A DNA stretch of 64,000 nt, taken from NCBI GenBank assembly GCA_965645245.1, contig OZ287088.1, positions 558,001 through 622,000 of the forward strand. The letters run 5' to 3'. Source of the DNA: Massalongia carnosa (taxonomy: Eukaryota). Position numbers and translations under genes: made by a program. This document shows positions 1-60,969 of the stretch, one piece after another (the stretch's first letter is position 1; every line of letters begins with the position of its first letter). Below the pieces are notes generated by a model. The model searched no databases and was not told the origin of the DNA. It was given only the letters and a program-made list of their open reading frames with translations.

Positions 1-1106
1 AACTGTGCAACCGAATTGGTAGCTCCCATTGGTATAGATGTCATTCGCAATAGTCCTATTGGTGTCATGAAGGCGGTCATGTCTCGACTATGAACATCGA
101 GTTCCATTTGGTCATATCCTGAAAACAAGTCGATCAAGGAAGCGATGTGGCAGCCAGCAAAGTCCTCTGAGAATTCGTCTACCGAAGGTGGCAGATTTGC
201 GTCTCGGATGGTCACTTTGTTCATGTCTAGAGCCGCATTAATTAATCGGTACTTATTTTTCTCTTTCTTCTTCACTATGAACCATTGATTTCGATAGGGA
301 CCATGACAAGGTTCCAACGTTCCTCGCTGCAGTCGGTCCTTCGGCATCTCTATCACCATCGGTACCAGGGCCCTTGGCAATGGGAATGATGGGGTCTGCC
401 ATGCCTCATGTGGAATGGTGTTGATTTTACATGGTGGAGACACCTCAGGTTTGACTCTGCCCATCTCCGAAAACTCCCATGACAGCGCTGCTTCTCGGTT
501 GTATAACATCTGGGTCAACACTTCTTTCTCAGCAGACGTCATACTGTCGCCCACTGTCATTCACTGCAGCCGTTCCGGTGTCAATCGTGAACCTTTGAAT
601 ATTGTCGAGAACTTTGGAATCAGCCAATCAGGAAAATTTTCTGACTTTGGTAGACCTCTCTCTTTCTCTAGCGCCTTCGCCTTCCAATCTGCCATTCCAC
701 CAGGTATGGTGCCATCCGACTGGTCAGAATTCACTGGTCGAACTTTTACCTCTTTCCGCTTATACGCCGTGTCAACTCTCACCGTACTCCGCTTGCCGAA
801 CACTCTGTTTTGATTGATTGTATATATGTCGAATTTTCGAGAGAACCTTAGAGAAGAAAGTCCGACCGAGCCAATTGAACGCGACGGTGTAAAGGCGCGA
901 ATATAGTGATCCATCGCTGCCACTTCCGCAATAGTCGCTGAGGGAGTTAGGGCTATTTGATTTAACAGGCCGGGCCTGTTAAATGGAACGGAAGAACCAC
1001 TTTCCGGAAGTCCCACCCTAACACTCGATACTTTCGCTCTCTCCAGGTTTTTACCACCACTACCAACCATGGACCTGTTCTGCACATGGTGGTTGGTCAG
1101 TTTAAA
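1..1106 (-). pseudogene. pol: pol (RT N-terminal part) of Gypsy 1, in the -1 frame relative to gag, with an in-frame TGA at 561-563
   Basis: The frame of ORF 561..1085 continues past the TGA as MTVGDS...KYRLINAALDMNKVT...SLIDLFSGYDQMEL...TAFMTPIGLLRMTSIPMGATNS, which are Ty3/Gypsy RT motifs. Confidence 0.88.
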
Positions 1107-16800: not shown

Positions 16801-17205
16801 GATATTTAACTAAAAGTCGATCGATTGTATATGTTTCTCGATCGTTTAGACTTTTTTCATTGTAAAGGTTAAAGATCTGCACTTTTCGAACTTCATCAAT
16901 TGTAATTTCGATAATTTGCAGATCAGTATCGTTTATAAGATCCGTTCTAGGCGTGCATTGTAATTTTGGATTGCATTTTGTAACGAATATAGCTACTCTC
17001 GGCCAATAAGTCGCCATTTTCGGAGCACGCAAGAATATTGCAGAACGCTAGAAAGAATTCACAGAGAATATGAAAGATGGGCTATGCAGCACGGATCCTT
17101 AGTTGCTCCGGCTAACTACGAGCTTATTCATTTATCTAGATATCCAAAGAAATTTGATATGACGGCTACTATTAATATAGAAAACAGCCTAATCAAACCA
17201 AAAGC
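10873..17205 (+). pseudogene. LINE-B ORF2 5' half (APE endonuclease and RT), interrupted by a LINE-A copy at 12979-17023 and cut at 17205
   Basis: ILQYN, LLGDFNLHYPFW, SDHIPI, YRPIALLN, GILQGSLISPILYLFY, GFVDDIN; resumes as ...WAMQHGS...YELIHL...IKPKA. Confidence 0.88.
12979..17023 (-). mobile_element. 5'-truncated LINE family A (subfamily A2) inserted antisense into LINE-B; 13-bp TSD AGCACGCAAGAAT
   Basis: TSD at 12966-12978 and 17024-17036; A-rich tail at the left end; APE-RT ORF 14756..17032 plus RNase H and CCHC fragments. Confidence 0.93.
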
Positions 17206-19044: not shown

Positions 19045-20538
19045 TTATTTAGTCCTCTTTGTGCGTCGTCCTGTTTCTTTCGCTAATGAGGGAGTCCTAG
19101 TGGCCTGAGGGGTGGACTTTGCTGTTGGCTTGGTAGGATTTTTCTCATGAAATTCCCTCAATAGCTTTCGTAGATGTTTGACGCCGGCGACGGGCTCCCA
19201 TGTGTCTTCCGCGTCGGGATAACCTTTCCAATGCACTAGATAATATAATCCAGCCGGTCGTCCGTCTTCTGCTTCTTTTGCATAGACTGCACTATCTCGT
19301 ATGCACTCTACTTCATACTCTTGCATGTCATCGTCTTCGAATTCAAGCTGTTCAGCCATTTGTTCGTCTACTACCTCCCTTCTGGTGGTGTCTCTTTCCA
19401 GCAGAGACACATGAAAGACTGGGTGTATTTTCCAACTTTTCGGAAGTTCTAGCTCGTAAGCTTGAGTGCCTACAGGCCTCAACACCTTAAAGGGACCCAA
19501 GAACTTATGCTCAAGCTTCTTGTTCCTTTTCGTCTTAATATGTTTGCTGTTTAGCCAAACCATATCATCGGGAGCGTAGCAACGTTCTTTCACCGTTCTA
19601 TTGTGATATTTGGCTTGATTGTCTTGGGCTAATTGCAGGTTATTTTTCAACTCTGCTAACAAATCGCGTAGATTTTTAGCCTGTTCCTCAGCTGTCTTCG
19701 ACTTCGATCGAGGGTCTTGGTTATCTTCATAACTCATCCTTGGGTGGTAGCCTATATTAGCCTCGAACGGGGTGAGCTTGGTGCTTGAATGACGGGTGTT
19801 ATTGTATGCAAATTCAGCGGTAGGGAGCCATTGCACCCAGTCATCTTGCTCGAAACGGCAGTAAGACCTAAGGTAAGCTTCCATGGTACTATTTTGACGT
19901 TCTGTCTGACCGTCTGTTTGTGGATGGAAGGCTGTGCTTAGCCTACGCTTTATCTTCATGTAATAGCATAGGGATGACCAGAAGTTTGATGTAAATAGCG
20001 AGCCCCGATCGGTGAATATGGAGTCAGGTAGGCCGTGATACTTGAACACGCAGTGCCTTAGCACTTCAGCTAACTGTTCAGCAGTCAGCGTTTTCTTCAC
20101 TGCCTCATAGTGCACCATCTTGGTGAGCCTATCAACGACGACTAGGATAGAGTCATAATCAACTCCCCTCCAGTCCTTACTCTTAGGTAAGCCAGTGACG
20201 AAGTCCATCGTAATGTCCTTCCACTTATGAGTTGGTATAGGCAACGACTGCAAGTTTCCATAAGGCTTATGCCTCGTAGCTTTGCTACTCATGCAGACGT
20301 CGCAACCCTCTACATAGCGTGCTATGTCTGACTTCATCGATGGCCAGTAGTACTTTCTACTCACTAGCTCAATCGTCTTGTCTTTCCCGAAGTGCCCTGC
20401 CAGCGGATCATCATGATTTAACTCAAGAATTTCTCCTCGTAAGGAGGCTGGGATGTAGGCCTTTCCTTCATAGACAGTGGTCCGAGTCCGACCATGGCTC
20501 GCTGGAGGGCGCCACCTCCTGGGTCCCCGACACGTCAC
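19045..20538 (-). CDS. pol: Integrase plus chromodomain of Gypsy 2 (out of frame with RT-RH; true coding begins ~20470)
   Basis: HHCC (HDDPLAGH...CDVC), D,D35E core (MDFV, TDRG, QTERQN), GPF motif, chromodomain EYEVECI...YLVHWKGYPDAEDTWEP. Confidence 0.92.
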   Translation of the reverse strand: MTCRGPRRWRPPASHGRTRTTVYEGKAYIPASLRGEILELNHDDPLAGHFGKDKTIELVSRKYYWPSMKSDIARYVEGCDVCMSSKATRHKPYGNLQSLPIPTHKWKDITMDFVTGLPKSKDWRGVDYDSILVVVDRLTKMVHYEAVKKTLTAEQLAEVLRHCVFKYHGLPDSIFTDRGSLFTSNFWSSLCYYMKIKRRLSTAFHPQTDGQTERQNSTMEAYLRSYCRFEQDDWVQWLPTAEFAYNNTRHSSTKLTPFEANIGYHPRMSYEDNQDPRSKSKTAEEQAKNLRDLLAELKNNLQLAQDNQAKYHNRTVKERCYAPDDMVWLNSKHIKTKRNKKLEHKFLGPFKVLRPVGTQAYELELPKSWKIHPVFHVSLLERDTTRREVVDEQMAEQLEFEDDDMQEYEVECIRDSAVYAKEAEDGRPAGLYYLVHWKGYPDAEDTWEPVAGVKHLRKLLREFHEKNPTKPTAKSTPQATRTPSLAKETGRRTKRTK

Positions 20539-22969
20539 TGTCTTTCAAGGTAGCTAACCTTTTCCGAACAGTGATAGCGACCTCGTCAACCTGTTGCAAC
20601 TCAGGAAGACGCTCTAATACTCCCCTAGAAGCGGGTTGAGTATAAGGTGACTCGCGCTGTGCGAGAGAGTTTCGCAATGAACTCCAGTATGCCTTCACCT
20701 TCGGAACAACCAATGTTCCGCATGTTATGATCTTCCATATTTCACCGTGGTGAGACCCCGTCGGGCCAGAAGCATCATCTAACGACTCCCCTGACATTGC
20801 CCTCATTAGACAAACGCGTGCGTTCTTATCTGCTAGGGATGTCTGCAAAAGGTGGAGCGTTTTGCGGTTTTCAACCAGCACTTCGCCATCATCATCGCCA
20901 GCGGTAGGAGGTCTTGACAGCCCATCGGCTGGGTTCCTCTTACCCTGACGATAATCGATGCGGAAATTATACCTGGAAAGCTCTTGAGCCCACCTTACTT
21001 GCCTGCCGCTTAGGCGCTTGGTATCCATAAACCTCGTAAGGTTATTGTGATCAGTCAACACGAGAATTTCGTGAGACGACCCCTCAAGGTAATGTCTCCA
21101 AATTTTGAAGGCCTCGACTATCGCTAATAGTTCAGCATCATGGGTCTCGTAATTACGCTCAGCCGGTAGCATCTTGCGTGAGTAATAGGCAACAGGGTGC
21201 CATTGTCCCTCGTCATCTTGCTGAGCCAATATGCCGCCAATAGCATAACCTGACGCATCGGTTTCCACGCGTACTGGTTTACTAGCATCGTAATGCCTTA
21301 GTACCGGGGCCTCTATGAACGACTTTTTCAGCTTCTCAAAAGCCTCTAGAGCTTCCTCCGTAAGGAACTCGCATTCGACACCCTTAGGTGCTTTCTGTCT
21401 ATGATTAGCGGGCTTTGTTTTCAGCATAGCGGTAAGTGGCCCTGCTATTTTACTGAACCCACGAATGAATCGTCTATAGAAATTGGCGAAGCCTATGAAC
21501 ACCTGTATATCGCGTACGCATGTGGGCCGTGGCCAATTTTGCACTGCTTGGATGCGATCTTTTCGCATATAAACACCCTTAGGATTGATGACATAGCCTA
21601 GGAATTCGACTTCGTCGGTGCTGAATCGGCATTTTTGTAAGTTACAAAATAAGCCATGCTTGCGGAGTTGTTCTAACACCCATCGCACAGCATCTTCATG
21701 GGCCTTACCCTTCTGTTCGGTATAGATCAGTATATCATCCAAATAAACGATGCAGAAGACATCCAGTTTTAGTGCCAACGCTTTATTGATATAGGCTTGG
21801 AAGGAGGCCGGAGCATTGGATAATCCGAACGGCATGACGCAGTATTCGAAATGGCCATATCGGGTGCGAAAGGCTGTCTTCCATTCGTCGCCTTTCTTAA
21901 TTCTGATGCGATTATAGGCTGCAGTCAAATCCAATTGGGTGTACTGTTTGGCCCGTCCTAGTCGATCTAAAGACTCGCCTACTAATGGTAGCGGGTAGCG
22001 ATTTTTAACTGTCAGATTGTTCAGACCCCTATAATCCACGCAGAGCCTCAGGGTACCATTTGCCTTAGGCACGAAGAGAATAGGAGCTCCAGCTGGTGAG
22101 GTAGATGGCCGGATAAACCCATTAGCCAGGTGAGCATCGAGGTAGGCCCTTAGCACTGTGAGCTCTGTTTCTGATAGGCTATAAATAGGTCCATATGGAG
22201 GCTGCTTTCCATCCACGAGGTCGATCGCATGATCATGTAGCCCGTGCTCTGGTAGCTCGGCTGCACTATCTTCCGAAAAGACATCTGCGAAATCCTTATA
22301 AGCCTCAGGGACCTTGATTTCTTGTACCTTCACTGAGGCTATTCTAGCTCGACGGCTCGAATGGATGTTATCTACACCTAGCGCCTTAGCATGGACCACG
22401 TAGGTCGGTGTATCTTCTGATAACGCCTCTTCTATGAAGACTTCTGGTTCTATAATCTCTATCCGATGAGTAGTCATCAGGGCCGATTGAACGCTTAGTT
22501 CTCGCCAATTCAGGGTCCTTGCTGACCAATCGATATCGGGATTGGCTAGCTGCAGGAATGGCATGCCCAACACGATATTATGAGGTATATCTGCTATTAG
22601 GAATGTTTCCTCAAAGAAACGTTGCTGACCTAATTGATCAGTTACCCCGAACACCAACAGACCCATGCCATGTGTCATGACTTGCTGGTGATTAATAGCT
22701 TCCAAACTGACGCTGGAGTGTAACACTGTCAGAGCGCATATATTTGCGTAAGCTCTAGAAATAAGGTTAACTTCACTTCCGCTGTCAATTAGTGCTTTTG
22801 CTGTTTCTTTAGCGTGTGTTATTTCGTACTCTATGCAGGGTGCGACTTCCAATGTCTTAGGACTTGCCGATGCCTCTTTGATAGTAGTCGCCGGTAGGGA
22901 GGCAGCAGCGGCGACTATGCTTTTTTTGGATGGGGACAGTCTTTTACCCAATGTTCGAGGGATCCACAA
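20468..22969 (-). CDS. pol: Pol (protease, RT, RNase H) of Gypsy 2, reached by -1 frameshift from gag
   Basis: ALIDSGSEVN, LRLCVDYRGLN, VYLDDILIY, VETDASGYAIGG, LTDHNNL, ADGLSR. Confidence 0.95.
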   Translation of the reverse strand: MWIPRTLGKRLSPSKKSIVAAAASLPATTIKEASASPKTLEVAPCIEYEITHAKETAKALIDSGSEVNLISRAYANICALTVLHSSVSLEAINHQQVMTHGMGLLVFGVTDQLGQQRFFEETFLIADIPHNIVLGMPFLQLANPDIDWSARTLNWRELSVQSALMTTHRIEIIEPEVFIEEALSEDTPTYVVHAKALGVDNIHSSRRARIASVKVQEIKVPEAYKDFADVFSEDSAAELPEHGLHDHAIDLVDGKQPPYGPIYSLSETELTVLRAYLDAHLANGFIRPSTSPAGAPILFVPKANGTLRLCVDYRGLNNLTVKNRYPLPLVGESLDRLGRAKQYTQLDLTAAYNRIRIKKGDEWKTAFRTRYGHFEYCVMPFGLSNAPASFQAYINKALALKLDVFCIVYLDDILIYTEQKGKAHEDAVRWVLEQLRKHGLFCNLQKCRFSTDEVEFLGYVINPKGVYMRKDRIQAVQNWPRPTCVRDIQVFIGFANFYRRFIRGFSKIAGPLTAMLKTKPANHRQKAPKGVECEFLTEEALEAFEKLKKSFIEAPVLRHYDASKPVRVETDASGYAIGGILAQQDDEGQWHPVAYYSRKMLPAERNYETHDAELLAIVEAFKIWRHYLEGSSHEILVLTDHNNLTRFMDTKRLSGRQVRWAQELSRYNFRIDYRQGKRNPADGLSRPPTAGDDDGEVLVENRKTLHLLQTSLADKNARVCLMRAMSGESLDDASGPTGSHHGEIWKIITCGTLVVPKVKAYWSSLRNSLAQRESPYTQPASRGVLERLPELQQVDEVAITVRKRLATLKDSDVSGTQEVAPSSEPWSDSDHCL

Positions 22970-24069
22970 TTATAGCAGCTATTTTTGTTATTGTCTTGTA
23001 TCTCGGTCACAGTGCCTAGCGGAATGGCATTGCTATTGGTCGACGGCGCGCTAGTACCAGCCGGAGCCGCATTCCTGCCGCCTCGGCCTCTTCCGCCTCT
23101 ATTGCCTCTTCCGTGGTGACTACCTCGATGACCTCTTCCGCCTCGACCTCCGCGATGATTAGTTGGATATGGTTCTCGGCGGCCCTGATCGTTAGAAGCC
23201 GGGGCACCTTGCTCCCGCTTGGAGTAGCCTCTACCTGTTGATGATGGCAACACAGCCGCTCCCTCAGCTAGTTGTGCATCACTGATGAATTCCGCTATGG
23301 TAGCGGGATGTCGATGACCTAGTGCTAAGGAATTCCGAATTATTGGTATGACTCCCGTACGAAGCTTCTGGACCATCTGTTCTTCGGTAATAGGATGTTC
23401 CGGATCTGCATCGGCTAATATTGTTCGTAGGCGTTGTAAGTAGGCCGCAAAGGATTGAACAGTATCATTGGGACGTTGTTGTGCATGATGGTACTGCATC
23501 CAGGTTCGATCTTTGAAAACTTCTGTAGAGCCTAGTTGATTCATGAGGTTCTTTTTGAACTCCTTCCAGGTAAGATTCAGATGACCCCCTCGTGATAGTA
23601 TCTCATGCCAATTGTCGCTAGGGGTGTCTCGAAGGTAGCTGCCTGCATAGGCTATACGACGATCTTGTTCCGTTTCAGGCATGCCACTAGTGTTAAAGAC
23701 AGCCTCGCATTGTCTGGTGAATTCGAACAAGGTCTTATGGTCCTTGCCATAATACGGGTCGGGCGACTTAGCTTTGAGGTTATACCTGACAGATCGTTCC
23801 ATGGAGCGAGGACGACGAGACTCTCTTTCCTCGTGCAGTCGTTCTAATTCCCTTTCATTGGCAGCGAGACGGGTACTTTGCTGAGTCAACAAGGTAGCCT
23901 GGGCCTGCATGGCTGCTGTCTGTTCGGTCAAATGGGCCTGCATGGCTCTAATCTCGTCGATTAGCTGGTTTGGTGGTGTTTGTTCCAGCGTATCGTAGTC
24001 CAGTAGGTCATCACCCTGATTGGACGTGGGATTGGCCGAATTCTGGCCGCTTCGTCCTCGTGTGTTCAT
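22915..24069 (-). CDS. gag: Gag (384 aa) of Gypsy 2
   Basis: Capsid-like region (QRPNDTVQSFAAYLQRL), RGG-rich segment and CCHC knuckle CYNCGSLEHWVKDC. Confidence 0.93.
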   Translation of the reverse strand: MNTRGRSGQNSANPTSNQGDDLLDYDTLEQTPPNQLIDEIRAMQAHLTEQTAAMQAQATLLTQQSTRLAANERELERLHEERESRRPRSMERSVRYNLKAKSPDPYYGKDHKTLFEFTRQCEAVFNTSGMPETEQDRRIAYAGSYLRDTPSDNWHEILSRGGHLNLTWKEFKKNLMNQLGSTEVFKDRTWMQYHHAQQRPNDTVQSFAAYLQRLRTILADADPEHPITEEQMVQKLRTGVIPIIRNSLALGHRHPATIAEFISDAQLAEGAAVLPSSTGRGYSKREQGAPASNDQGRREPYPTNHRGGRGGRGHRGSHHGRGNRGGRGRGGRNAAPAGTSAPSTNSNAIPLGTVTEIQDNNKNSCYNCGSLEHWVKDCPHPKKA

Positions 24070-26434: not shown

Positions 26435-26507
26435 TCTCGAGTAGCTCAGTTGGTAGAGCGGAACACTGAAGTTGTTTAGGTTATAAGTTCAAATCTTATT
26501 TCGAAGC
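26435..26507 (+). tRNA. trnF: tRNA-Phe(GAA)-like, mitochondrial style; probably a NUMT or pseudogene
   Basis: D arm GCTC-AGTTGGTA-GAGC; anticodon arm GAACA-CTGAAGT-TGTTT (GAA at 26468-26470); T arm ATAAG-TTCAAAT-CTTAT; imperfect acceptor stem TCTCGAG/TTCGAAG. Confidence 0.75.
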
Positions 26508-49900: not shown

Positions 49901-52510
49901 GAGAAAATAGTTGCTAATCGACTTGCCTACCTCGGCGAAAATTCGAGCTTGTTAGATACCGAACAAATAGGCGGACGCAAAAATCATTCTGCAATCGATG
50001 AGGTTATGAACGTCGTTCATGATATCGAAATCGCAAACCGAAACAAAAACGTTTTATCATGTCTATTACTCGATGTCAAAGGAGCATTTGACTTTGTTTC
50101 CATTATTCAATTGCTAAATGTCATGAAAAAGCTGCATTTATCTCGCATAGTTATTCAATGGGTCAAGCATTTTATGACAAAACGATCGATCAATTTGATA
50201 TCGATGAACGCAAAAGCAAAACGTACTATATCGAATCTGGAATTCCACAAGGTTCACCCATCTCGCCAATTCTATTTCTGATTTATATTCGTTACTTATT
50301 CCCGAAAATACGAATGAAATTCAATGCTCATTCACCTATCTTTATAGACGATGTTGCAATATATGTCGAAAATAAAACTGCCAAACAGAATTGCAAAGAA
50401 ATCGAAATTATCTTCAAAACAGCTTTTTATTGGGCCGCAACGAATAATGTCAAATTTGATAACGACAAATCTGAGTTGATTCACTTCGAAAAGTCAAGAA
50501 ATGCATCAAAACACAAAGTGCAATTACCAAACGGGACAATACTAGAAACGAAAAAATCTGTCAAATGGTTATGAGTCTGGTTAGACCGAAAACTAAATTA
50601 CAAAAAACACGTCGAAACGCGAATTGCTTCTGCAAATCGAATGTTTTTCGCAACTCAAAATTTGATGAAGTCTGAATGGGGACTAATGCCAACTGCATGC
50701 AGACAGCTCTATTTGTCATGCATTATTCCTATTTCGGACTATGGCTCAGAAATCAGGTATAATGGTAAAAAGAAAAATGAAAAGCTATTTCAGAATCTGC
50801 AAAATCGAATGATTCGAAAGATTTTAGGCACATTCAAAACCAAGCTTGTTCAGGTGATGGAAATTGAATCGCATATTTACAAGCCAAGCTACGATTGTTG
50901 ATTTAAAAATCAAAAATACGCAATTCGATTACTGAAGATTGCCGAAAATAATCCTATTTGTCAAGGAATTCCCAGTACCTATTCGGTAAAATTCAAAAAC
51001 ATCGGTTTTGACACTAGTTTAAAGAACAACAGATATGTTGAATTGAACGAAGACCAGAAAAATCGAATAAACCTCATCATAGTCAGTTTATCCATATTCT
51101 TTATTCCGTTTCGGATATAGTTCACAAAACTGATGAATTCGAATCAGTATATAATTTCATCCAACCATGGATGCCCTCTTGTAAAATCAAGTTCCAAATC
51201 GAAAGATCAAAAGAAACAGCGAAGTCAAGTTATTATTCGACTTTATAAAAAATTCAATCAATTAACGCAGATAAATCGCGAGTGTTACTCTATACTGATG
51301 GATCAAGAACCGAGTATTCAACTTCCGCTGTCACATTTGCACCAATTATGGGAAATTGGAACAATTTCACTGATAACTTCAATCGTTTTATCGAAAAATA
51401 TTGTCTCCTCAAACATCATACGATCTCGAAAAGCTGGAAATTAAAAAAACAGTCAAGCGTTAAAAAGGCTGAACTGTATGCGATACTACGAGCATTAAAA
51501 TGGCCATATAAATTGACAATTGCGAATATTCTCTCCAATTTAGAAAAAACGATTTGGATTTTTTCTGATAGCATAAACGCGATAAACGAAACTCAGAACT
51601 TTACAAATCATACTTACGCAAAACAAATTCGAAAATTCTCGAAATGCTTATTCGGAAACAATTATCAGGTGGTTCTACAATGGATTCCTAGTCATTCAAA
51701 AATCGTCGAAAATGAAATTGCAGATAAAGCAGCAAAAGCGGGACATAGTCGAATCCTAGTCGAGTCTTCGATAATAACATTTGATTATATAAGGGTCAAA
51801 TAAATCGAAATATGTTATCCACAAGGGCGAATCAATGGCAACAATGCAAGTCAAAAGGCAAATACTATGAGAAATTCGAATTGCAGCCGGGCAAATCGAG
51901 TTTTTATTATCTGTCGAATAATTGTACAAAATTGATATTTGAGACTATTATGCAAATGAAATTGGGACACGGTTGTTTTCGATCATATCTGCACCGATTG
52001 AAAGATTATAATTCGTCAAAATGCACAGGGCGCTGCAACGAACGTCAAACGCCAGAACACTTATTGATAAATTGCATACATTATTCCAATGAAATCCTAA
52101 ACATGAAACAAAATATCGATACCACAATTACTTTAAAAATATTGTTTAATACTAGGATCGGAAATAATATTTTGATTAATTTTATTGTTGATAACAAAAT
52201 CTCGACTAGAAAATGTATGCTAGGTCAGCTCGATGACGAAAAAATAGAAACAGGAGGTTGGGGAGAGATTGAACAGTAAAATTAGAAATCATTTATGCTG
52301 GAATATTCACTAGCTTTCAAAAACTAATTGAAAAATCGATATTTCGATTACTAAAGATTGTTACTAACACGGAGTAAAAACGGGGCAATATTGACGATAC
52401 ATAGTTGGGTTATAAAGGGTTGATTTAATTGTAAAATAAAAACATATCTTAAAATAGTTTAGTGTCATAACCTTAGGTTGAATACACCCAATGAATAAAT
52501 AAATAAAAAA

Positions 52511-53020
52511 TCACTAGCAACACAGATAAGAACGGAAAAAATCAGACTGGCCAACTTTCTATATCGGCGTAAGGTCCCAGGTATGAACACGGCGGCATGT
52601 CCCTACGGAAGCCTCTTACAAACAGCCAACATGTAATCATGTTCTGCAGACTGCACGAACACAGAACGCACATGCTACGAACGGCAGGCTCGTCAGACTA
52701 CCGCAAGCTAATTACCGAACCCAAAGCTCTCAAAGTAGTAACCGCGTGGCTAATGCGCACATGTATTTTAACACAGTATTTCATTGCCACGCAACTGCTT
52801 GAACAGCAGCCGTGCAGTCTCTCTTCAGTTTGAAAAACAGATATAGCAGATTTTCGAGATTCAGAAATCAATTCGCGGGAGAGGCGAACCCCCGATGAAG
52901 CGGATACGCAGGAATAGTTTTTCACCTTTAGGTTTTCTACTTATTACATAGCTTATATAGCATCCCCTGCATGGGCCGGCCTCCGGCGGGTGACACAACT
53001 GCGTAAGAATAATCAAATCA
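52511..53020 (+). mobile_element. 3' end of a LINE-B-related element
   Basis: SLATQIRTEKIRLANFLYRRKVPG, VTAWLMRT; 3'UTR gcatgggccggcctccggcggg; CAAAT-type tail. Confidence 0.82.
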
Positions 53021-53024
53021 AACC

Positions 53025-53392
53025 AACGCGATAAACGAAATTCATAACTTGACAAATCATATTTTCGCAAGACAAATTCGAAAGCTCGCAAAACGCATTT
53101 TTGAAAGCAATTATCAGGTGATTTTGCAATGGGTTCCGAGTAATTCAAATATAAACAAAATAGCAAACACGGGTCATAATCAAATCCTAGTCGAGTCCTC
53201 GGCGATAACATTTGATTATGTAAAAGATCACATGAATAAAAATATGCTAACCACATGGATGAATCAATGGGAACAATGCAAATCAAAAGGCAAATACTAC
53301 GAGAAATTCGAAATAAAACCTGGCATATCGAGATTTTATTTATTTATTAAACAACTGTTCGAAATTGATATTTGCTACTATTATGCAATTAA
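53025..53392 (+). mobile_element. LINE-A1 RNase H fragment ending abruptly at 53392
   Basis: ORF 53049.. matches A1 copies up to ...tatgcaattaa, then changes to unrelated sequence. Confidence 0.85.
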
Positions 53393-55287
53393 CAAGCATC
53401 TCGAACTTTGTAAAGTGGTACGAGGAATGTCAAATATGCGAGCAGCGCATATCTTGCTTTCAAGTGGATTTTCTATTAGAAACTGCTTAGCATCATTCGC
53501 GTGACAGTATCATTACAATTCATGATTGTTAAATGAACAAGTTACCATCGGTCCTCACCACGGAGACGCCAAAGGCCTCACCGTGGGGCGACCGTCAAAC
53601 ATAGATTTGCTCCTATCTCTTCGCATCAAAACAATGCTAATTTAACGCGTTCACACGCGTCGCAGACGTACGTACGGAAGAGGATACGAAGGCCAACCGC
53701 CGGGGGGTAGAATGCGCGCGTCCCTGCACCATGCTTCTAAGGGTTCAAGTCCCTTCATGCAGTCATCAGCTGGAAGAAGATGTGGACCAAAGGAGCCGCA
53801 TCATCCCCCACCCGGGCACAGTCGACACGCGTTCTAGCTCCTGAGAGTTCAAGTCTCCCCATGCAGTCATCAGCTGGGATCAACAGAACGCGTAAAGGCA
53901 CCGGGGCGAATGCTGTCACCTCAAGAAAACTCCATCTCGGAGCAGAATAACAATATCCCATTTAATAGGCCCGGCCTGTTAAATAAAATCGAGGAAAACA
54001 AAGTCACAAAACACATAGTCATCAATCACACGTTGTACAAAGCACACAGTCACAAAGCACACAGTCACAAACATACAGTCACAAATACACAGTCACAAAA
54101 CACACAGTCACAAAAAGCACAGTCACAAATCAATAACACGTCCCTGTGAAGGGGGTTCTGCGGGGGCTCGTTAAGACAGATCTGCACCCCGTTAATATCG
54201 GAGTACATATTTTTAGAGGTTCAAGTCCTTTCTAGCAGTCATCAGCTGAAAATAATGTATTTTGACACGGGCATGGTGTGGATTTGACACGGGTAGACCT
54301 CGATGGATCACAAAACGAATGAAAAGAGTTCAGCGGAACTTCGTTAATATTGTTCTCGAAGACCTCGTTAATAAGATTTTCATAGATCTCGTTAACAACG
54401 TTCGGTCATACTCTTAAAGGTTCAAGTCCTTTCATGCAGTCATCGGCTGAGAGCTAAAGACGTACTACACGGGTCAGCTATGTCTATCACACGGGTCTCC
54501 TTCGTCTACAACACGGAGCCCTCCGGCTGAAAGAAATAAAAAATATAGACACATAGTGTAGGGTCACACCCTACACGATACAAGGGATTTAGGTTATGAA
54601 AACCATCCGATTGATGGCTACCGTGAGCAACACGGCCCGAACCGGAGTCGTACCGGGGATGGTGGAGGCAACCTAGTCATCAAATAGGACACCCTTGGGA
54701 CAAGAAGAGGGCAATATACGAGGAACCCGTTAATTGATAACAGTCTAGGCCCTGAGCTAATAGACGAATTTCAAACGAGCACCCCTCCGAGTTGTCCTCG
54801 ACTTGTTTTGGTTAGTAGGGACGGAAAATCGATACTATACTGCCTGGTCAGGAGCATAGCTGTCGAAATCCCTGCGAGACATGGTCGGTTCATAAACGGG
54901 AGACCTTTATGAATAACGCGAAGTGGGCGTAAAAAACCCGTGAGGCGTGGTATGCAATGGCGGCCACCGTACGGAGACCGTCTGCATAGCCCGAGAGGAC
55001 AGTATGCGCATGTCGGTGTATATAGAGCAGGGAATGTCTATCTCGCTCGTAACGAGACCCCGTCGGTTCGCCGGCGCATAGGCTACGGCTAGACTCGCCC
55101 TTGATATATGCTTAAGGAGTAAACTGGGTTTGACCTGGGCGAAAGGGACGTCGTTCACCCCAATCGTAGAATTCATCAATAGTCTTGGGCCGTAAAACGC
55201 ACCAGTGAGATGAACGAAAACTGGGATAGAGACTTCACGAAGGAGATGTCAACTCTATTTTATCATTCTTAGCCCCGTCTTGAACCT
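53393..55287 (+). ncRNA. Large structured RNA region, probably the 5' leader of the LINE-A2 copy downstream
   Basis: Four covarying T-loop junction modules, long G-U-rich rods, many GNRA/UNCG hairpins and no credible ORF; directly abuts ORF1. Confidence 0.6.
54000..54130 (+). repeat. ~12-13-bp tandem repeat (CACAGTCACAAA)n, about 8 units
   Basis: Directly visible. Confidence 0.9.
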
Positions 55288-56718
55288 ATGGATCAAACTC
55301 GCGAATATGCATCAGCCCCGTCAACACCGACACCAAAGGCAACGAAATTCCTATCGGGTCCATTTTCCACTATCTTGCCGATGCCTTCATTGAACTTAAA
55401 CATTGGATTAAGCCCACCAATCAAACGAAATAAAAGACGCACATTTGACGAACATTCGAGAGATAGCCAAGAAGCGATCAATCGGGCAAATTCAATTGAG
55501 CTTCTAAAGTCGGCCAAAAAAGCATTATTGCAATCATTTGTACTGGACCAAAATCCACAAACGGCTATCGTAATTGACAACGTTAATTCGTTGATTTCGA
55601 AAAAATCAATCAATTTACAAACATCCTTAGATATGATTAACTATAAAATGGGCATAGTACTTGATCAAACTAGTCATCTTTCCTCAAAAACGTCACAACA
55701 ACAAACGACTCCACTACAGAATGGTCCAAAAATCCAAAAACCTGTTGTTAAATTGAACGAAAATTCAATTATCGAAAATCAGACCATTCGCAAAGGAGCC
55801 ACCGGGGTCTCTGGTAACAATGTTAGCACAACCGGTACATGGAGTTAAATGCTTGGAAAAGCAACCGAAAACTCCGAAAATTGGACTACTATTCAAAGGA
55901 AAAGTTCGAATCATAATTCGAACAAAGTCGATCGATTTCATGCAATCAAGGCCAGACGACTCGTGATTTCACCGAAAAATCCTGACGCTCAAATCGACTC
56001 TATGAAGTTGCGTGATGAAATTAACGCGCTATTAAAAAACGCAAATTTAAACATCATCGTCAATACTTTTGAAAAGTCCAAAACCGGTCAGAATATCGTT
56101 CTCACCACTAGCCCTGACAACAATGCCGAAGAATTGTTGAAAAATAAATCTTCATGGGAACAGATTTTCGAATCACAAAGAATTCGAAAAGACGAATCCT
56201 GGTTTAAAGTCATAGCACACGGAGTAAATATCTCGTTATTCGATAATAACATGCAATATTTGCAAACCGAAATCGAAAAATACAATTCGAATATGCAACT
56301 ATGCGATTTACCAAGATGGCTTGCTCGGGATCGTCAAAACAAAGTCACGTCGTCGGTAGTTTTGACTTTCAATAATCAAAATCAAGCGTCAAACGCGTTA
56401 AGAGGCGTGAATATCGCGGGTAGACATTGTGACACGGAAATAATTGCTTCCGTTCGTCCAAACACGCAATGTATTAATTGTCAGAAATTTGGACATAAGC
56501 ATTATCAATGCAAAAGTCCGGCAAAATGCAATATATGCGCACAAAGTCATGAAACGCATAATCATGAATGCACAAGCTGCAAGTGTAAAATCGCATGCGC
56601 ACATGCAATTCTGAAATGCGTCAATTGCAACAAAAATCATCAATCGAACGATATAGGTTGCGAAATGTTTATCTCGCTAAATCCTAGAAAATCGAATGAT
56701 GAATTAATGCTTGGTTAA
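55288..56718 (+). pseudogene. LINE-A2 ORF1 (three Cys/His knuckles) with one in-frame TAA at 55846-55848
   Basis: QCINCQKFGHKHYQC..CNICAQSHETHNHEC..CVNCNKNHQSNDIGC; homologous to ORF 38928. Confidence 0.92.
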
Positions 56719-59700
56719 TGGCGGGACAACATTCGTTGACAAATATCGAAAATACACAAAATGTCAAATTTATTCAACATAATTGTGCAAAGTCAACGAA
56801 TGCAATGATTTCGTGTCTGGAATATGCAGTATTAAATCGTGTTGATATTGTTTTATTTCAGGAACCATGGACGCGAGATCAAAAAACAATTTCCCATCCG
56901 TCATTCACATGTATTATGCCGAAAATAGCGACTTATCGGCCGAGAGTAGCTATATTCGTTACAAAATGCAATCCAAAATTACAATGCACGCCTAGAACGG
57001 ATCTTATAAACGATACTGATCTGCAAATTATCGAAATTACAATTGATGAAGTTCGAAAAGTGCAGATCTTTAACCTTTACAATGAAAAAAGTCTAAACGA
57101 TCGAGAAACATATACAATCGATCGACTTTTAGTTAAATATCAACCTATATCAACTGATCAATTTGTCATATGAGGAGATTTCAATGCACATCATAGCTGG
57201 TGGAATTCGAAGATTCAAAATGCAATTCGATCAGAAAATCTAGTCAAATGGTTAAAATTAAACAAATGTAGTTTGATAAATACGCCTGATCTATATACAT
57301 TTTTTGCTCATTCAGGAAATTCTTCATCTATTATTGATTTAACATTTGCAAATTCTAAAATCGAAAACGCAATTACAAATTGGTCAATCGATGAAAACGC
57401 AGTCACGGGTTCAGATCATGAAGTTATTCGATTTGAACTTATCGCGTCTTTCAAGAACTTGACGTCACACGCAACCGCATTATCGAATAAATACAACTGC
57501 AATAAAGCCGATTGGGATAAATTCGCGAAGTTTCTAGACGAAAATGCAATAAACTACGAGTCCCATATACAAAGTCTATTGAACAGTTATCAATTTGATG
57601 AATCAGCGTTATATTTGCAAAACGTTATCAAAAACGCGGCTGAAATGTTTATTCCGAAGACAAAAATATGCGCAAAATCGAAAAATTGGTGGTCGCAAGA
57701 TTTATCCGGACTTCGAAAAATCATGTGTAGACATCGTCGAGAATGGAAGAATAATCCGTCCTATTTTAGTCATCAAACATTTAGACATAGTCGAATCGAG
57801 TACTTTCATGCAATTCGAAAAGCGAAACAGCAAACTTGGTTGGCTTTCCTCGAAAACGCAGCGAATAAAGACGTATTTACAGCTTATAAATACACTAAAC
57901 CGCGCATGTTCGAAAAAATACCACCTATTCAATATGAAAATAAGTTAAATGTTCAATTCGATCACAAATGCGATGCGTTTGTGTCAGCAATGTACACAAA
58001 AAACCCGTTCACTGATGATAATATTGAAGATTTAACGAATCAAGACAGCGAAAATGACAACAATTGGCCGAATTAAACAGAAAATGAATTGCAAAATGCG
58101 ATTAGTTTGTTTAATCCAAAGAAATCATGTGGGCCTGATGCAATCAATTTCACAATAATTCAAAAATCGTTTCAACCATTGAAAAACGTGTTTTTTACTA
58201 TTTATTCTAAATTTATACAAATCGGTTATCACCCGTTATGTTGGCGAACAGGACTCGGTGCTGTTTTAAAAAAACCTAATAAACCAGACTACTCGCTGCC
58301 AAAATCATATCGAATTATTACCTTACTGAATTGTCTTGGTAAAATTGCGGAGAAAATAGTTGCTAATCGACTAGCCTACCTCGGCGAAAATTCGAGCTTG
58401 TTAGATACCGAACAAATGGGCGGACGGAAAAATCATTCTGCAATCGATGCGGTAATGAACGTCGTTCATGATATCGAAATCGCAAACCGAAACAAAAACG
58501 TTTTATCATGTCTATTACTCGATGTCAAAGGAGCATTTGACTTTGTTTCGATTAATCAATTGATAAATGTCATGAAAAAGCTGCATTTATCTCGCATAGT
58601 TATTCAATGGGTCAAGCATTTTATGACAAAACGATCGATCAATTTGATATTCGATGAACACAAAAGCAAAACGTACTATATCGAATCTGGAATTCCACAA
58701 GGTTCACCAATTTCGCCAATTCTATTTCTGATTTATATTCGTTACTTATTTCCGAAAATACGAATAAAATTCAATGCTCATTCACCTAGCTTTATAGACG
58801 ATGTTGCAATATATGTCGAAAATAAAACTGCCACACAGAATTGCAAAGAAATCGAAATTATCGTCAAAACAGCTTTTGATTGGGCCGCAACGAATAATGT
58901 CAAATTTGATGACGACGATTCTGAGTTGATTCACTTCGAAAAGTCAAGAAATGCATCAAAAGACAAAGTGCAATTACCAAACGGGACAATACTAGAACCG
59001 AAAAATTCTTTCAAATGGTTAGGAGTCTGGTTAGACCGAAAACTAAATTACAAAAAACACGTCGAAACGCGAATTGCTTTTGCAAATCGATCGTTTTTCG
59101 CAATTCAAAATTTGATGAAGTCTGAATGGGGACTAAAGCCAACTGCATGCAGACAGCTCTATTTGTCATGCATTATTCCTATTTCGGACTATGGCTCAGA
59201 AATCTGGTATAACGGTCAAAAGAAATATGAAAAGCTATTTCAGAATCTGCAAAATCGAATGATTCGAAAGATTTTAGGCACATTCAAAACGACGCCTGTT
59301 CAGGCGATGGAAATTGAATCGCATATTTTACCAGCCAAGCTACGATTGTTGATGAAAAATCAAAAATACGCAATTAGATTATTGAAGATTGCCGAAAATA
59401 ATCCTATTTGTCAAAGAATTCCCAGTACCTATACGGTGAAATTTGAAAACATTGGTTTTGACACTAGTTTATGGAACAACAGATATGCTGAATGGAACGA
59501 AGACGAGAAAAAATCGAGTAAACCTCATCCTAGTCAGCTTATCCGTATTCTTCATTCCGTTTCGGATAGTGTTCACAAAACTGATGAATTCGAATCAGTA
59601 AATAATTTCATCAAACCATGGAAGCCGTCTTGTAAAATCAAGTTCCAAATCGAAAGATCAAAAGAAACAGCAAAGTCAAGTTATTATTCGACTTTATCAA

Positions 59701-60731
59701 AAATTCAATCAATAAACGCCGATAAATCGCAAATTTTACTCTATACCGTTGGATCAAAAACCGAGTTTTCAACTTCCGCTGTCACATTTGCACCAATTAC
59801 GCGAAATTGGAACAATTTCACCGATAACTTCAATCGTTTTATCGAAAAAGATTGTCTCCTCAAACATCATACGATTTCGAAAAGCTGGAAATTAAACAAA
59901 CAGTCAAGCGTTAAAAACGCTGAACTGTATGCGATACTACAAGCAATAAAATGGGCATACAAATTGACAATTGCGAATATTCTCTTCAATTTGGAAAAAA
60001 CGATTTGGATTTTTTCCGATAGCATAAACGCGATAAACGAAATTCAGAACTTGACAAATCATACTTACGCAAAACAAATTCGAAAATTCTCGAAATGCTT
60101 ATTCGGAAATAATTATCAGGTGGTTCTACAATGGATTCCTAGTCATTCGAAAATCGTCGAAAATGAAATTGCAGATAAAGCAGCTAAAGCGGGACATAGT
60201 CGAATCCTAGTCGAGTCTTCGATAATAACATTTGATTATGTGAAGGGTCAAATAAATCGAAATATTTTAGCCACATGGGCGAATCAATGGCAACAATGCA
60301 AGTCAAAAGGCAAATACTATGAGAAATTCGAAATGCAGCCGGGCAAATCGAGTTTTTATTATCTGTCGAATAATTGTTCTAAATTAATATTTGCAACTAT
60401 TATGCAAATGAAATTCGGACACGGTTATTTTCGATCATATCTGCACCGATTGAAAGATTATAATTCGTCAAAATGCACAGGGCGCTGCAACGAACGTCAA
60501 ACACCAGAACACTTATTGATGAATTGCATACATTATTCAAATGAAATCCTAAACATGAAACAAAATATCGATACCACAATTACTTTAAAAATGTTGTTTA
60601 ATACTAGGATCGGAAATAATATTTTGATTAAATTTATTGTTGATAACAAAATCGCGACTAGAAAATGGATGCTAGGTCGGCTCGATGACGAAAATATCGA
60701 AACGGGAGGTTGGGGAGAGATCGAACAGTAA
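56718..60731 (+). pseudogene. LINE-A2 ORF2 (APE-RT-RNase H-CCHC), one frame with stops at 57171-57173 and 58074-58076; 3'UTR and poly(A) to ~60969
   Basis: FIQHNC, FQEPW, GDFNAHH, SDHEVI, YRIITLLN, LLDVKGAFD, FIDD; the first RNase H Asp is mutated (YTVGS). Confidence 0.93.
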
Positions 60732-60969
60732 AATTAGAAATGATTTATGCTGGAATATTTACGAGCTTAACAAAAACAAATTTTAAAATCGATATTTCGA
60801 TTACTAAAGGTTGTTACTAACACGGAGTAAAAACGGGGCAATATTGACTATACATAGTTGGGTTATAAAGGGTTGATTTATTTGTAAAATAAAACCATAT
60901 CTTAAAATAGTTTAGTGTCATAACCTTAGGTTGAATACACTTAATGAATAAATAAAAAATAAAAAAAAA

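What the first reader, a model, noticed from the sequence alone, without database searches (positions are those of the whole stretch)
54150..54532. Modules 3 and 4 cap long rods built from a repeated CGU-UAANA / AC-ACGG internal-loop unit
Two YCGTTAA motifs precede module 3 (~54168, ~54189) and two ACACGGG follow it (~54265, ~54287). Three precede module 4 (~54341, ~54365, ~54389) and three ACACGG follow it (~54467, ~54489, ~54511). The counts match and the motifs nest: YCGT pairs with ACGG, leaving UAANA opposite a short C/AC strand. The spacers pair too: CAGATCTGCACC/GGTGTGGATTTG, TCGGAGTACAT/ATGTATTTTGA, ACGTT/GACGT, CATAG/CTATG, CGAAG/CTTCG and TTCAGCGGA/TCCGGCTGAA. Module 2 likewise sits on ACGCGTTCT/AGAACGCGT. 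Regularly repeated asymmetric loops suggest an array of protein-binding or tertiary docking sites (inference). Tandem duplication alone does not explain this, because the spacers differ in sequence.
Basis: partly seen in the sequence, partly recalled or inferred. Interest (0 to 1): 0.78.

Follow-up and report, generated by a model that had tools for sequence, protein, structure and literature searches.

The report
Loop-studded RNA rods in LINE leader
The flagged stretch is part of the long untranslated leader of a fungal jumping gene (a LINE), where the RNA folds into long hairpin rods that carry the same small internal loop at regular steps and end in a tRNA-like cap, and this design recurs in very distantly related elements and has not, as far as I could find, been described.

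Summary
All ten motifs are at the stated places and they nest. Rod 3 folds exactly as described. Rod 4 is 4 kcal/mol from its minimum-energy fold in this copy, and 0.3 with the two letters that most other copies carry.

The region lies in the ~1.74-kb 5' leader (53544-55287) of the one full-length Tad1-like LINE in a head-to-tail LINE array of an ascomycete, probably lichen-associated.

A metagenome scan found the cap motif in 39 loci. In 11 of them LINE reverse-transcriptase sequence follows on the same strand.

- **Cap:** a three-way junction with a tRNA T-arm look-alike (GUUCAAGUC loop). Eleven of its 15 pairs show compensatory change.
- **Rods:** other lineages also have 1-3 nested copies of a 5'-UAANAY/AC-3' loop, flanked by YGU/ACR and YGG/YCR helices, at fixed distances from the cap. 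The spacers differ in sequence but pair with their own partner (0 of 5000 permutations do as well).
- **Conservation:** these motifs are nearly invariant although the reverse transcriptases are only 24-34% identical.

Function is inferred: most likely a multivalent binding platform for a conserved, probably host, factor on the sense RNA. No transcript evidence was available. No matching description was found in six literature searches.

The parts
53544..55287 (+). 5' untranslated leader (~1744 nt) of the one full-length Tad1-like LINE copy in the window. GC is 0.49 against 0.36 in the ORFs. It holds 26 upstream ATG and no ORF of 100 aa or more.
   Evidence: Unique in the window (self-BLAST). 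Copies in other runs share sequence from 53544 onward (loose ends). ORF1 starts at 55288 and APE/RT/RNase H follow.
53743..53772 (+). Cap module 1, a three-way-junction core made of a T-arm-like hairpin and a CAGU/GCUG mini-hairpin. It has a short P1 and no loop-bearing rod.
53847..53876 (+). Cap module 2. Its P1 is extended by ACGCGUUCU (53827-53835) paired with AGAACGCGU (53885-53893).
   Evidence: z -3.09, 0 of 200 shuffles as good.
54161..54296 (+). Rod 3: a hairpin with two nested loop units, capped by module 3 (54219-54248). The 5' loops UAAGAC and UAAUAU lie at 54172-54177 and 54193-54198. The 3' AC dinucleotides lie at 54287-54288 and 54265-54266.
   Evidence: The minimum-energy fold equals the nested structure.
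54329..54531 (+). Rod 4: a hairpin with three nested loop units, capped by module 4 (54420-54449). The 5' loops lie at 54345-54350, 54369-54374 and 54393-54398. The 3' AC dinucleotides lie at 54511-54512, 54489-54490 and 54467-54468.
   Evidence: nested fold -50.8 against a minimum of -54.8 kcal/mol. With the majority letters seen in other runs at 54387 and 54466 the gap is 0.3 kcal/mol.
54581..54697 (+). Domain A: a conserved branched RNA domain downstream of the rods, closed by CAAGGG/CCCUUG.
   Evidence: RNAalifold on 10 lineages gave 36 pairs, 20 of them with compensatory change. Its order relative to the modules is conserved.
54727..54781 (+). Orphan rod: CCGUUAA followed by a degenerate 3' motif (AAACGAGCA) with no cap. 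L007, L008 and L034 have a capped rod or module at this place.
54806..55030 (+). Domains B and C: conserved sequence blocks (CUUUGGUUAGUAGGG ... GAGAGGACAGUAUGCGCA) ending in UAUAUAGAGCAG (55019-55030).
   Evidence: The anchors occur in the same order in most loci. Their structure was not analysed.
55288..60964 (+). Coding part and 3' tail of the LINE. ORF1 is broken into three frames (55288-57173). APE is at 57273-58076 and RT-RNase H at 58089-60731. An A-rich tail ends at about 60964.

Best explanation
Shown. The interval is part of the sense-strand 5' leader RNA of a Tad1-like LINE. That leader is built from repeated 'rod plus cap' domains.

The cap is a three-way junction with these parts:
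- P1, which continues into the rod.
- One invariant U.
- P2, a 5-bp stem with the loop UUCAAGU, a look-alike of a tRNA T-arm.
- A 4-nt joiner.
- P3, CAGU/GCUG with the loop CAUCA.

The rod is a long helix interrupted 1 to 3 times by the same asymmetric internal loop, 5'-UAANAY-3' over 5'-AC-3'. On the outer side of each loop is a 4-5-bp helix (YYGU/ACRG). On the inner side are at least 3 bp (YGG/YCR).
- The first loop lies 28-31 nt before the cap and 15-20 nt after it.
- Further loops follow every 21-28 nt on the 5' arm and every 22-24 nt on the 3' arm.

Inferred. The identical loops are a multivalent landing platform on the LINE RNA for one conserved trans-acting factor, and each rod tip carries a tRNA-like T-arm handle. 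The factor is more likely a host RNA-binding protein than the element's own fast-evolving ORF1p. Together they would assemble or protect the ribonucleoprotein, or drive scanning-independent use of ORF1 behind a leader with 26 upstream AUGs.

Rough odds:
- A conserved sense-strand RNA structure that belongs to the LINE leader: about 0.9.
- Loops acting as repeated binding sites for a protein: about 0.45.
For: Presence and nesting in the window are shown.

The design recurs. The cap pattern has exact matches in 39 metagenome loci on 37 contigs, giving 90 hits at up to 4 substitutions.

Cap covariation (43 distinct sequences, gapless alignment):
- 88.5% of cells are paired against 77.1% in shuffles (0 of 500 shuffles reach it).
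- 11 of 15 pairs have changes on both sides.
- Sliding the partner columns gives at most 55.5% paired.

Rods in other lineages. Outside the 183-nt-repeat family, 14 of 19 module contexts with at least one 5' motif have equal 5' and 3' counts: L007 2/2, 3/3 and 1/1; L034 2/2; L039 1/1 and 2/2; the window 2/2 and 3/3. Distances from the cap are fixed.

Loop and flanks in 23 non-redundant units:
- U, A, A and the fifth-position A are invariant or nearly so, and AC is present in 21-23 of 23.
- The outer helix pairs in 23, 23, 19, 23 and 15 of 23 units. Its third pair switches between C-G (14) and U-A (5), with 4 C.A.
- The inner helix pairs in 18, 20 and 21 of 23. Its first pair is C-G in 8 units and U-A in 7.

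Spacers differ in sequence but pair with their own partner. The mean duplex energy is -10.4 kcal/mol against -4.6 for partners from other loci. None of 5000 permutations does as well, and the cognate partner ranks 1-3 of 28 in 21 of 28 cases. The nested fold is within 1.2 kcal/mol of the minimum in 14 of 19 rods.

Strand. G.U pairs outnumber A.C on the + strand, 45 to 26 in the caps and 31 to 5 beside the loops. There is also an invariant U.G in P3.

Link to the LINE. RT or APE homologs follow on the same strand in 11 loci. Internally deleted elements keep the leader.

For a conserved, probably host, partner. The RT is 30% identical to L007 and 24% to L010, and 26-34% over the local matches. 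ORF1 gave one weak tblastn hit. The cap loops are nevertheless identical. GUUCAAGUC on a 5-bp stem fits the GUUCNANNC stem-loop that yeast Pus4 modifies in vitro (passages of PMC13492117).

For multivalency. Loop number varies from 0 to 6 per element, and whole rods are tandemly duplicated with a 183-nt period.
Against: No transcript, probing or binding data exist, so function is wholly inferred.

Single-sequence thermodynamics is only moderate:
- The whole interval has z -1.85, and the minus strand folds as well.
- The inner part of rod 4 and module 1, folded alone, are no better than shuffles (z +0.36 and 0.00).
- The anchor G:C pair of a unit appears in the minimum-energy fold in only 16 of 30 units.
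- In a fixed register the outer helix does not extend beyond 5 bp. A permutation test on positions 3-8 was negative (observed 2.17, permuted 2.53).

The loops are dispensable. L008 (4 caps) and L005 (3 caps) have none.

Within-family variation from four other runs is not clearly compensatory. Of 8 variable places in 54150-54532:
- One restores a pair (54466 T>G).
- One keeps a wobble (54486 A>G).
- Two break pairs (54258 T>C, in 22-100% of depth per run, and 54202 A>C).
- Three lie in unpaired positions (54176, 54254, 54387).
- For 54404 the effect on its predicted pair was not judged.

Many loci are related or overlapping, so sequences are not independent. Counts are of sequences, not of evolutionary events.
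Confidence: 0.5

Rival explanations
1. RNA architecture rather than protein binding. The UAANAY/AC loops are tertiary motifs, either receptor-like with stacked adenines or bend-inducing. They would dock rods onto each other or onto domains A-C. This would compact the leader into a large fold that works as an IRES-like or export-competent particle.
For: The loop has invariant adenines next to a Watson-Crick helix. In that respect it resembles the UAA/GAN motif and the 11-nt tetraloop receptor (recalled; only the title of Lee, Gutell & Russell 2006 was seen, in a reference list). The leader holds further covarying domains. It has 26 upstream AUGs, as many as chance gives, so plain scanning looks unlikely. 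The first loop sits at a fixed distance from the cap.
Against: Loop number varies from 0 to 6 per element, and lineages with none keep the caps and domains A-C. That is unexpected for an obligatory docking partner. No complementary or receptor partner was identified. The UAA/GAN definition is not met, because the would-be G position is Watson-Crick paired and covaries.
Confidence: 0.22
2. Processing signals. The caps mimic tRNA so that tRNA-processing or tRNA-modifying enzymes act on the leader, or the caps cleave themselves. Either would define RNA ends in read-through transcripts of tandem LINE arrays. This would be analogous to HDV-like ribozymes at the 5' ends of other LINEs.
For: The hairpin is T-arm-like, with G-C closure and the GUUCNANNC consensus. 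The elements sit in head-to-tail arrays where co-transcripts are likely. There is a precedent for 5' ribozymes in LINEs (abstracts of PMC3383444 and PMC4035085 in the listing).
Against: There is no cloverleaf or acceptor-like continuity. The linker lies between the T-arm and the 3' strand of P1, the reverse of a tRNA. ARAGORN and the Rfam tRNA model found nothing there, and no ribozyme family matched at E up to 10. The minus-strand CUGAUGA lacks a helix II and is CCGAUGA in module 4. This idea explains the caps but not the repeated loops.
Confidence: 0.1
3. DNA-level elements. The invariant GGTTCAAGTCC is a Pol III B box (a TFIIIC site), and ACGCGT and CAGCTG are transcription-factor sites. 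Together they would make up the internal promoter or an insulator, and the pairing would be secondary.
For: The cap loops and the ACGCGT palindromes are conserved as sequence, not merely as pairs. A LINE must carry an internal promoter in its leader (established knowledge). B-box likeness is recalled.
Against: Stems P1, P2 and P3 and the rod spacers covary, which DNA binding sites do not require. The excess of G.U over A.C is specific to the + strand RNA. No A-box-like partner was seen.
Confidence: 0.08
4. No function of their own. The rods are neutral products of repeated local duplication in a tolerant leader.
For: Rods are duplicated in tandem with periods of 183 nt and about 201 nt. Loop number varies, and some lineages lack loops.
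Against: Matched counts on both arms, near-invariant loop letters and compensating spacers are kept across elements with 24-34% RT identity.
Confidence: 0.05

Closest known systems
Structured 5' RNA of other non-LTR retrotransposons: the R2 5' protein-binding RNA (recalled), and the Pr77/HDV-like ribozyme of L1Tc (abstracts of PMC3383444 and PMC4035085 seen in the listing)
   Same: It is a cis-acting, conserved RNA structure in the 5' leader of a LINE. It travels with the element and is kept in deleted derivatives.
   Different: There is no sequence or Rfam likeness. It is much larger (about 1.7 kb), modular and repetitive. No ribozyme fold was recognised. The repeated UAANAY/AC loop and the T-arm-like cap have no counterpart there.
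tRNA T-arm / T-loop motif
   Same: A 5-bp stem with a G-C closing pair and the 7-nt loop UUCAAGU. U is at loop position 1 and A at position 5. The sequence fits GUUCNANNC (passages of PMC13492117).
   Different: It is not part of a cloverleaf. It sits in a three-way junction with a 4-bp mini-hairpin, and its 5' strand, not its 3' strand, runs on into the long helix. No tRNA is detected.
UAA/GAN internal loop and the 11-nt GAAA-tetraloop receptor (recalled; only the title of Lee, Gutell & Russell 2006 was seen in a reference list)
   Same: UAA lies directly 3' of a Watson-Crick helix, opposite a short A-containing strand. Invariant adenines could stack or form a platform.
   Different: The loop is 6 x 2 nt. 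The position that would be the G of GAN is Watson-Crick paired and covaries. No tetraloop partner is present.
Multivalent protein-binding RNAs with repeated short motifs, such as CsrB with its many CsrA sites (mentioned in PMC12510878)
   Same: One short motif is presented many times on hairpins of a single RNA, in a variable copy number.
   Different: The motif here is an internal loop within long rods, not a hairpin loop. The organism, context and partner are all different or unknown.
Stem-loops in 3' UTRs of 'stringent' LINEs, recognised by their own reverse transcriptase (recalled)
   Same: LINE-borne RNA hairpins that are conserved through compensatory change.
   Different: Those lie at the 3' end, where reverse transcription starts. 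Here the 3' UTR is AT-rich, lacks these motifs and folds no better than shuffles (z +0.48).

Membership tests
Tad1-like (APE + RT + RNase H) non-LTR retrotransposon: context of the finding | An ORF2 with endonuclease, reverse transcriptase and RNase H domains, and fungal relatives. | tested here: met
   Pfam hits to Exo_endo_phos_2, RVT_1 and RNase_H. There are 697 homologs at E<=0.001, and the named ones are from Lasallia and Sclerotinia. The clade name Tad1 is my assignment from domain order and fungal relatives, not from a phylogeny.
Tad1-like LINE: the finding belongs to its 5' leader | The structure lies upstream of, and on the same strand as, the LINE ORFs in independent copies. | tested here: met
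   In the window ORF1 starts at 55288. RT or APE homologs lie downstream on the module strand in 11 of 39 loci, and the rest are too short or degenerate to tell.
tRNA gene or tRNA-derived SINE | A cloverleaf detectable by tRNA models. | tested here: not met
   ARAGORN and the Rfam tRNA model find only the tRNA-Phe at 26435-26507. Nothing is found at 52500-55400 even at E<=10.
T-loop / T-arm-like hairpin | A 5-bp stem, a G-C closing pair and a 7-nt loop with U at position 1 and A at position 5, fitting GUUCNANNC. | tested here: met
   GTT-AAGTC is invariant in 43 of 43 sequences and the loop C in at least 90%. The closing G-C is present in 43 of 43, and 4 of 5 stem pairs covary. The consensus is from passages of PMC13492117. 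The U1/A5 rule is recalled.
T-loop / T-arm-like hairpin | The three-dimensional T-loop fold: a U-A reverse Hoogsteen pair and an intercalated base. | not testable with these tools
   No RNA 3D prediction or probing was available.
UAA/GAN internal loop motif | 5'-UAA-3' opposite 5'-GAN-3', where the G forms a sheared pair with the last A (recalled definition). | tested here: not met
   UAA is invariant (23 of 23). The nucleotide before AC is G in 12, A in 7, U in 3 and C in 1. It pairs in Watson-Crick fashion with the position after the loop (C-G 8, U-A 7).
Kink-turn | A 3-nt bulge followed by tandem sheared G.A pairs (recalled). | tested here: not met
   No G.A/A.G tandem can be formed. The loop strands are UAANAY and AC.
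Hammerhead ribozyme (minus strand reads CUGAUGA) | CUGAUGA, then helix II, then GAAA, then helix III, with the cleavage triplet (recalled). | tested here: not met
   Only 6 nt separate CUGAUGA from GAAA-like letters, so there is no helix II. Module 4 reads CCGAUGA. Rfam finds no match at E<=10.
Pol III B box (TFIIIC site) | A GGTTCRANNCC-like DNA sequence (recalled) together with an A box, and TFIIIC binding. | tested here: inconclusive
   The sequence fits in most caps. No A-box-like partner was seen by eye, and binding cannot be tested.
Any curated RNA family (Rfam 15) | A covariance-model match. | tested here: not met
   Only two weak matches to bacterial sRNA models (26.3 and 18.7 bits, below their gathering scores of 50 and 60) were found in 52500-55400 at E<=10.

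The most novel reading that the evidence does not exclude
A previously undescribed, deeply conserved RNA super-structure forms the leader of a large group of fungal LINEs. Its parts are tRNA-T-arm-capped rods studded with a new 6x2 internal-loop motif, plus at least one further covarying domain. It is held more constant than the reverse transcriptase because it plugs into universal host machinery. That machinery could be tRNA-modifying or tRNA-handling enzymes at the caps and one RNA-binding protein, or the ribosome, at the loops. If so, it would be a new way for retrotransposons to secure translation, export or protection of an uncapped or AUG-laden RNA.
Probability: 0.3. Interest if true: 0.85.

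Novelty: new variant of a known kind. Interest (0 to 1): 0.72.

Why it matters
LINE leaders are usually regarded as fast-evolving promoter regions. Here an RNA design of about 1.5 kb is shared by elements whose enzymes have diverged to 24-34% identity, and parts of it are letter-perfect. That points to a strong, unexplored constraint, most simply a contact with conserved host machinery.

The motifs are small and sharply defined: a 30-nt cap and a 6x2 loop with its flanking pairs. They can therefore be used in three ways.
- As search models across fungal genomes.
- As baits to find the binding partner.
- As a structural-biology target, because the loop is a possible new recurrent RNA motif.

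If the caps are substrates of Pus4, Trm2 or Trm6/61, they would be a natural case of a mobile element borrowing tRNA identity marks.

Tried and rejected
- **Own genome:** none is held for this window, so other genomic copies could only be reached through public runs and metagenomes.
- **Expression:** The look-up of sequencing runs listed no RNA holder. This says nothing either way.
- **Variation in four other runs (contigs):** the copies are too alike (mostly 90-99%) to give covariation. Eight variable places were mapped, with a mixed outcome.
- **Rfam:** gathering thresholds on the whole window and E<=10 on 52500-55400 gave nothing relevant.
- **Hammerhead on the minus strand:** rejected, because there is no helix II.
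- **Kink-turn and UAA/GAN:** rejected on sequence and covariation.
- **RNAalifold on a plain MAFFT alignment of whole units:** it recovered only P2 and P3, because indels in the spacers put the outer stems out of register. I replaced it with anchor-based counts and duplex-energy permutations.
- **Extending the outer helix beyond 5 bp in a fixed register:** failed.
- **Looking for the same motifs in the LINE 3' UTR:** none found, and its fold is no better than shuffles.
- **ORF1 conservation across loci:** one weak tblastn hit only.
- **Pfam on ORF1 pieces:** no family.
- **Earlier notes of this scan:** nothing on this genome or sequence. The two notes returned by a word search concern other LINE hairpins and did not bear on this one.
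- **Literature:** no paper in the library holds the string CAGTCATCAGCTG or CAGUCAUCAGCUG. Searches on structured fungal ncRNA motifs, on Tad1 with UTR structure, and on non-LTR with T-loop or tRNA-like gave nothing matching. Term searches in Li & Breaker 2017 (PMC5640933) for 'transpos', 'T-loop', 'tRNA-like' and 'repetitive' found none. The T-loop review PMC3748142 is not held.
Full report
**What is in the window**

Bases 36000-64000 are a head-to-tail array, all on the + strand, of mostly 5'-truncated copies of one non-LTR retrotransposon. Its ORF2 has endonuclease, reverse transcriptase and RNase H domains. The closest named relatives of the RT are from ascomycetes (Lasallia pustulata, Sclerotinia). 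The best hit of all is an unnamed protein at 86% identity.

Only one copy is full-length. Its ORF1 starts at 55288. The 2.8 kb before that has no other copy in the window, apart from a 370-bp LINE fragment at 53025-53392. Contigs from four other public runs share this sequence from 53544 onward (loose ends at 53544 in three runs). I therefore take 53544-55287 as the 5' leader. It contains no ORF of 100 aa or more. Its GC content is 0.49 against 0.36 in the ORFs, and it has 26 ATG triplets, as many as chance gives.

**The observation**

The four caps, GTTCAAGTC-N7-GCAGTCATCRGCTG, start at 53743, 53847, 54219 and 54420.

| Stretch | Result |
|---|---|
| Rod 3 | The minimum-energy fold is the described nested hairpin; z -2.48, 3 of 200 shuffles as good |
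| Rod 4 | Fully nested fold -50.8 against a minimum of -54.8 kcal/mol; z -1.90 |
| Rod 4 with the letters most other copies carry at 54387 and 54466 | The gap shrinks to 0.3 kcal/mol |
| Module 2 | Sits on ACGCGUUCU/AGAACGCGU; z -3.09 |
| Whole interval 54150-54532 | z -1.85 on the + strand and -2.17 on the minus strand |

Energy alone would therefore not settle the matter.

**Relatives**

One scan of metagenome contigs for the cap pattern returned 39 loci on 37 contigs. They hold 90 cap hits at up to 4 substitutions. Some loci overlap, and many belong to one family of 183-nt tandem repeats.

RT or APE homologs lie downstream on the cap strand in 11 loci.
- In L007 and L014 the spacing is that of a full element.
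- In L009, L025, L039, L015 and L010 the leader is joined directly to RT sequence. These are internally deleted elements that kept the leader.
- RT identity to the window is 30% for L007, 24% for L010, and 26-34% over the local matches.
- ORF1 gave one weak hit.

**The cap**

A gapless alignment of 43 distinct caps supports a three-way junction. Its parts are:
- P1, of which 6 pairs were tested and all show changes on both sides.
- One U, present in at least 90% of sequences.
- P2, a 5-bp stem in which 4 pairs covary and the closing G-C is invariant, around the loop UUCAAGU.
- A 4-nt joiner.
- P3, CAGU/GCUG. Its first pair is C-G in 38 sequences and G-C in 2, and its U.G is present in 41 of 43.

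Overall 88.5% of cells are paired against 77.1% in shuffles (0 of 500 reach it) and at most 55.5% when the partner columns are slid.

P2 looks like a tRNA T-arm and fits GUUCNANNC, the consensus of stem-loops that Pus4 modifies in vitro (passages of PMC13492117). It is not a tRNA, because no cloverleaf is detected. The strand topology is also the reverse of a tRNA: the extra hairpin lies between the T-arm and the 3' strand of P1.

**The rods**

In other lineages the 5' motif YGUUAA lies 28-31 nt before the cap, with further copies every 21-28 nt. The 3' motif ACAC(R)GG lies 15-20 nt after the cap, with further copies every 22-24 nt.

Counts on the two arms:
- Outside the 183-nt family, counts match in 14 of 19 contexts that have a 5' motif.
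- The five exceptions have specific causes. In two the extra 3' motif belongs to a neighbouring rod or domain. Two are twin caps that share one rod with a degenerate 3' motif. One has an extra adjacent 3' copy.
- In the 183-nt family, 13 of 22 contexts are 2/2. The others have lost a motif.

After collapsing 58 distinct units to 23 at less than 80% identity, the picture is as follows.
- **Loop:** 5'-U A A N A Y-3' over 5'-A C-3'. U, A and A are present in 23 of 23 units, the fifth A in 22 of 23, and AC in 23 and 21 of 23.
- **Outer helix:** pairs in 23, 23, 19, 23 and 15 of 23 units. Its third pair is C-G in 14, U-A in 5 and C.A in 4.
- **Inner helix:** pairs in 18, 20 and 21 of 23 units. Its first pair is C-G in 8 and U-A in 7.
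- **Beyond 5 bp:** the outer helix does not continue in a fixed register, and that test was negative.

The spacers between motifs are unrelated in sequence between lineages, yet they pair with their own partner. The cognate duplex energy averages -10.4 kcal/mol against -4.6 for partners from other loci (n = 682). None of 5000 permutations does as well, and the cognate partner ranks in the top 3 of 28 in 21 of 28 cases. One of the 28 was a mis-assigned pair.

The nested fold lies within 1.2 kcal/mol of the minimum in 14 of 19 rods (median 0.5, maximum 6.8). However, the anchor pair is in the minimum-energy fold for only 16 of 30 units.

G.U pairs exceed A.C on the + strand (45 to 26 in the caps, 31 to 5 beside the loops). 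The sense RNA is therefore the folded molecule.

**Surroundings**

The same leaders carry a covarying branched domain A (54581-54697). RNAalifold on 10 lineages gave 36 pairs, 20 of them compensatory. Conserved blocks B and C follow in a fixed order.

The 5'-proximal caps have no loops. They are instead closed by pairs of ACGCGT palindromes in several lineages. L008 and L005 have caps but no loops at all. The LINE 3' UTR has none of these motifs.

**Interpretation**

What is shown is a conserved, modular sense-RNA structure in a LINE leader. The loop and the cap loops are kept almost letter for letter, while the element's proteins diverge to 24-34% identity. This argues for a conserved partner, so a host factor or an RNA contact is more likely than ORF1p. 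Loop number ranges from 0 to 6, and whole rods are duplicated. That fits a multivalent, dosage-like binding platform better than an obligatory tertiary dock.

I therefore favour repeated protein-binding sites presented on rods whose tips carry a tRNA-like handle. They would serve RNP assembly or protection, or scanning-independent translation. Odds are given under Best explanation. The rivals are tertiary architecture, processing signals, DNA-level promoter or TFIIIC sites, and neutral duplication.

**Weaknesses**

- There are no RNA data of any kind.
- The thermodynamic signal is moderate.
- The sequences are not phylogenetically independent.
- Within-family variants are mixed: one restores a pair, one is neutral, two break pairs, three are in unpaired positions and one was not judged.
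- All 3D comparisons are recalled rather than tested.

**Novelty**

Rfam has no match. No paper in the searchable library contains the P3 string. Four further searches found no description (in the library; inside Li & Breaker 2017). The library lacks most subscription journals, so prior description cannot be excluded.

Noticed in passing
window 36000-64000: A head-to-tail array of one Tad1-like LINE. Most copies are 5'-truncated, and each starts directly after the A-rich tail of the previous copy. The 3' ends lie near 37817, 40624, 43975, 47835, 52510 and 60964. This suggests repeated insertion into the element's own tail or template switching.
   Followed up: partly
window 53645-53650, 53655-53660, 53827-53832, 53888-53893; also L005, L007, L008, L010, L034: ACGCGT palindromes flank the 5'-proximal caps in several lineages. 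They can pair with each other as RNA. Their strict sequence conservation also fits MluI-cell-cycle-box-like promoter sites (recalled).
   Followed up: no
window 54030-54130: A CA-rich minisatellite (CACAGTCACAAA-like units) lies between modules 2 and 3. Contigs of other runs skip or repeat 41-122 nt here, so its length is polymorphic.
   Followed up: partly
window 54581-54697: Domain A, a branched RNA domain downstream of the rods, has 20 of 36 pairs showing compensatory change in 10 lineages. It includes a long unpaired conserved stretch (GGYUAUGAAAACCAYCCGA) that might form a pseudoknot.
   Followed up: partly
window 54806-55030: Conserved blocks B and C end in TATATAGAGCAG (55019-55030). 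The same 12-mer also stands upstream of the caps in L009, L017, L023 and L039. It could be a TATA-like start signal for a shorter transcript or part of the RNA fold.
   Followed up: no
L009, L025, L039, L015, L010: In these loci the leader is joined directly to the middle or start of RT, and ORF1 and the endonuclease are missing. These are internally deleted, presumably non-autonomous derivatives that keep the structured leader.
   Followed up: partly
L001, L002, L014, L016, L022, L024, L031, L032, L037 and relatives: Whole rods (two loops plus a cap) are repeated in tandem with a 183-nt period, 2-3 times per leader.
   Followed up: partly
window 54727-54781: A rod with the 5' loop motif and a degenerate 3' motif but no cap. 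Other lineages have a capped rod or module at this place.
   Followed up: no
window 19045-24069 (- strand), 14756-17032 (- strand), 1097-3487 (- strand): Other mobile elements lie in the left half of the window. They are a chromodomain Ty3/gypsy element (gag, RT-RNase H, integrase), a second LINE type without an RNase H hit, and an ORF with an aspartyl-protease domain.
   Followed up: no
window 26435-26507: A tRNA-Phe(GAA) gene with an AT-rich T-arm (AAGTTCAAATCTT) is the only tRNA in the window.
   Followed up: no
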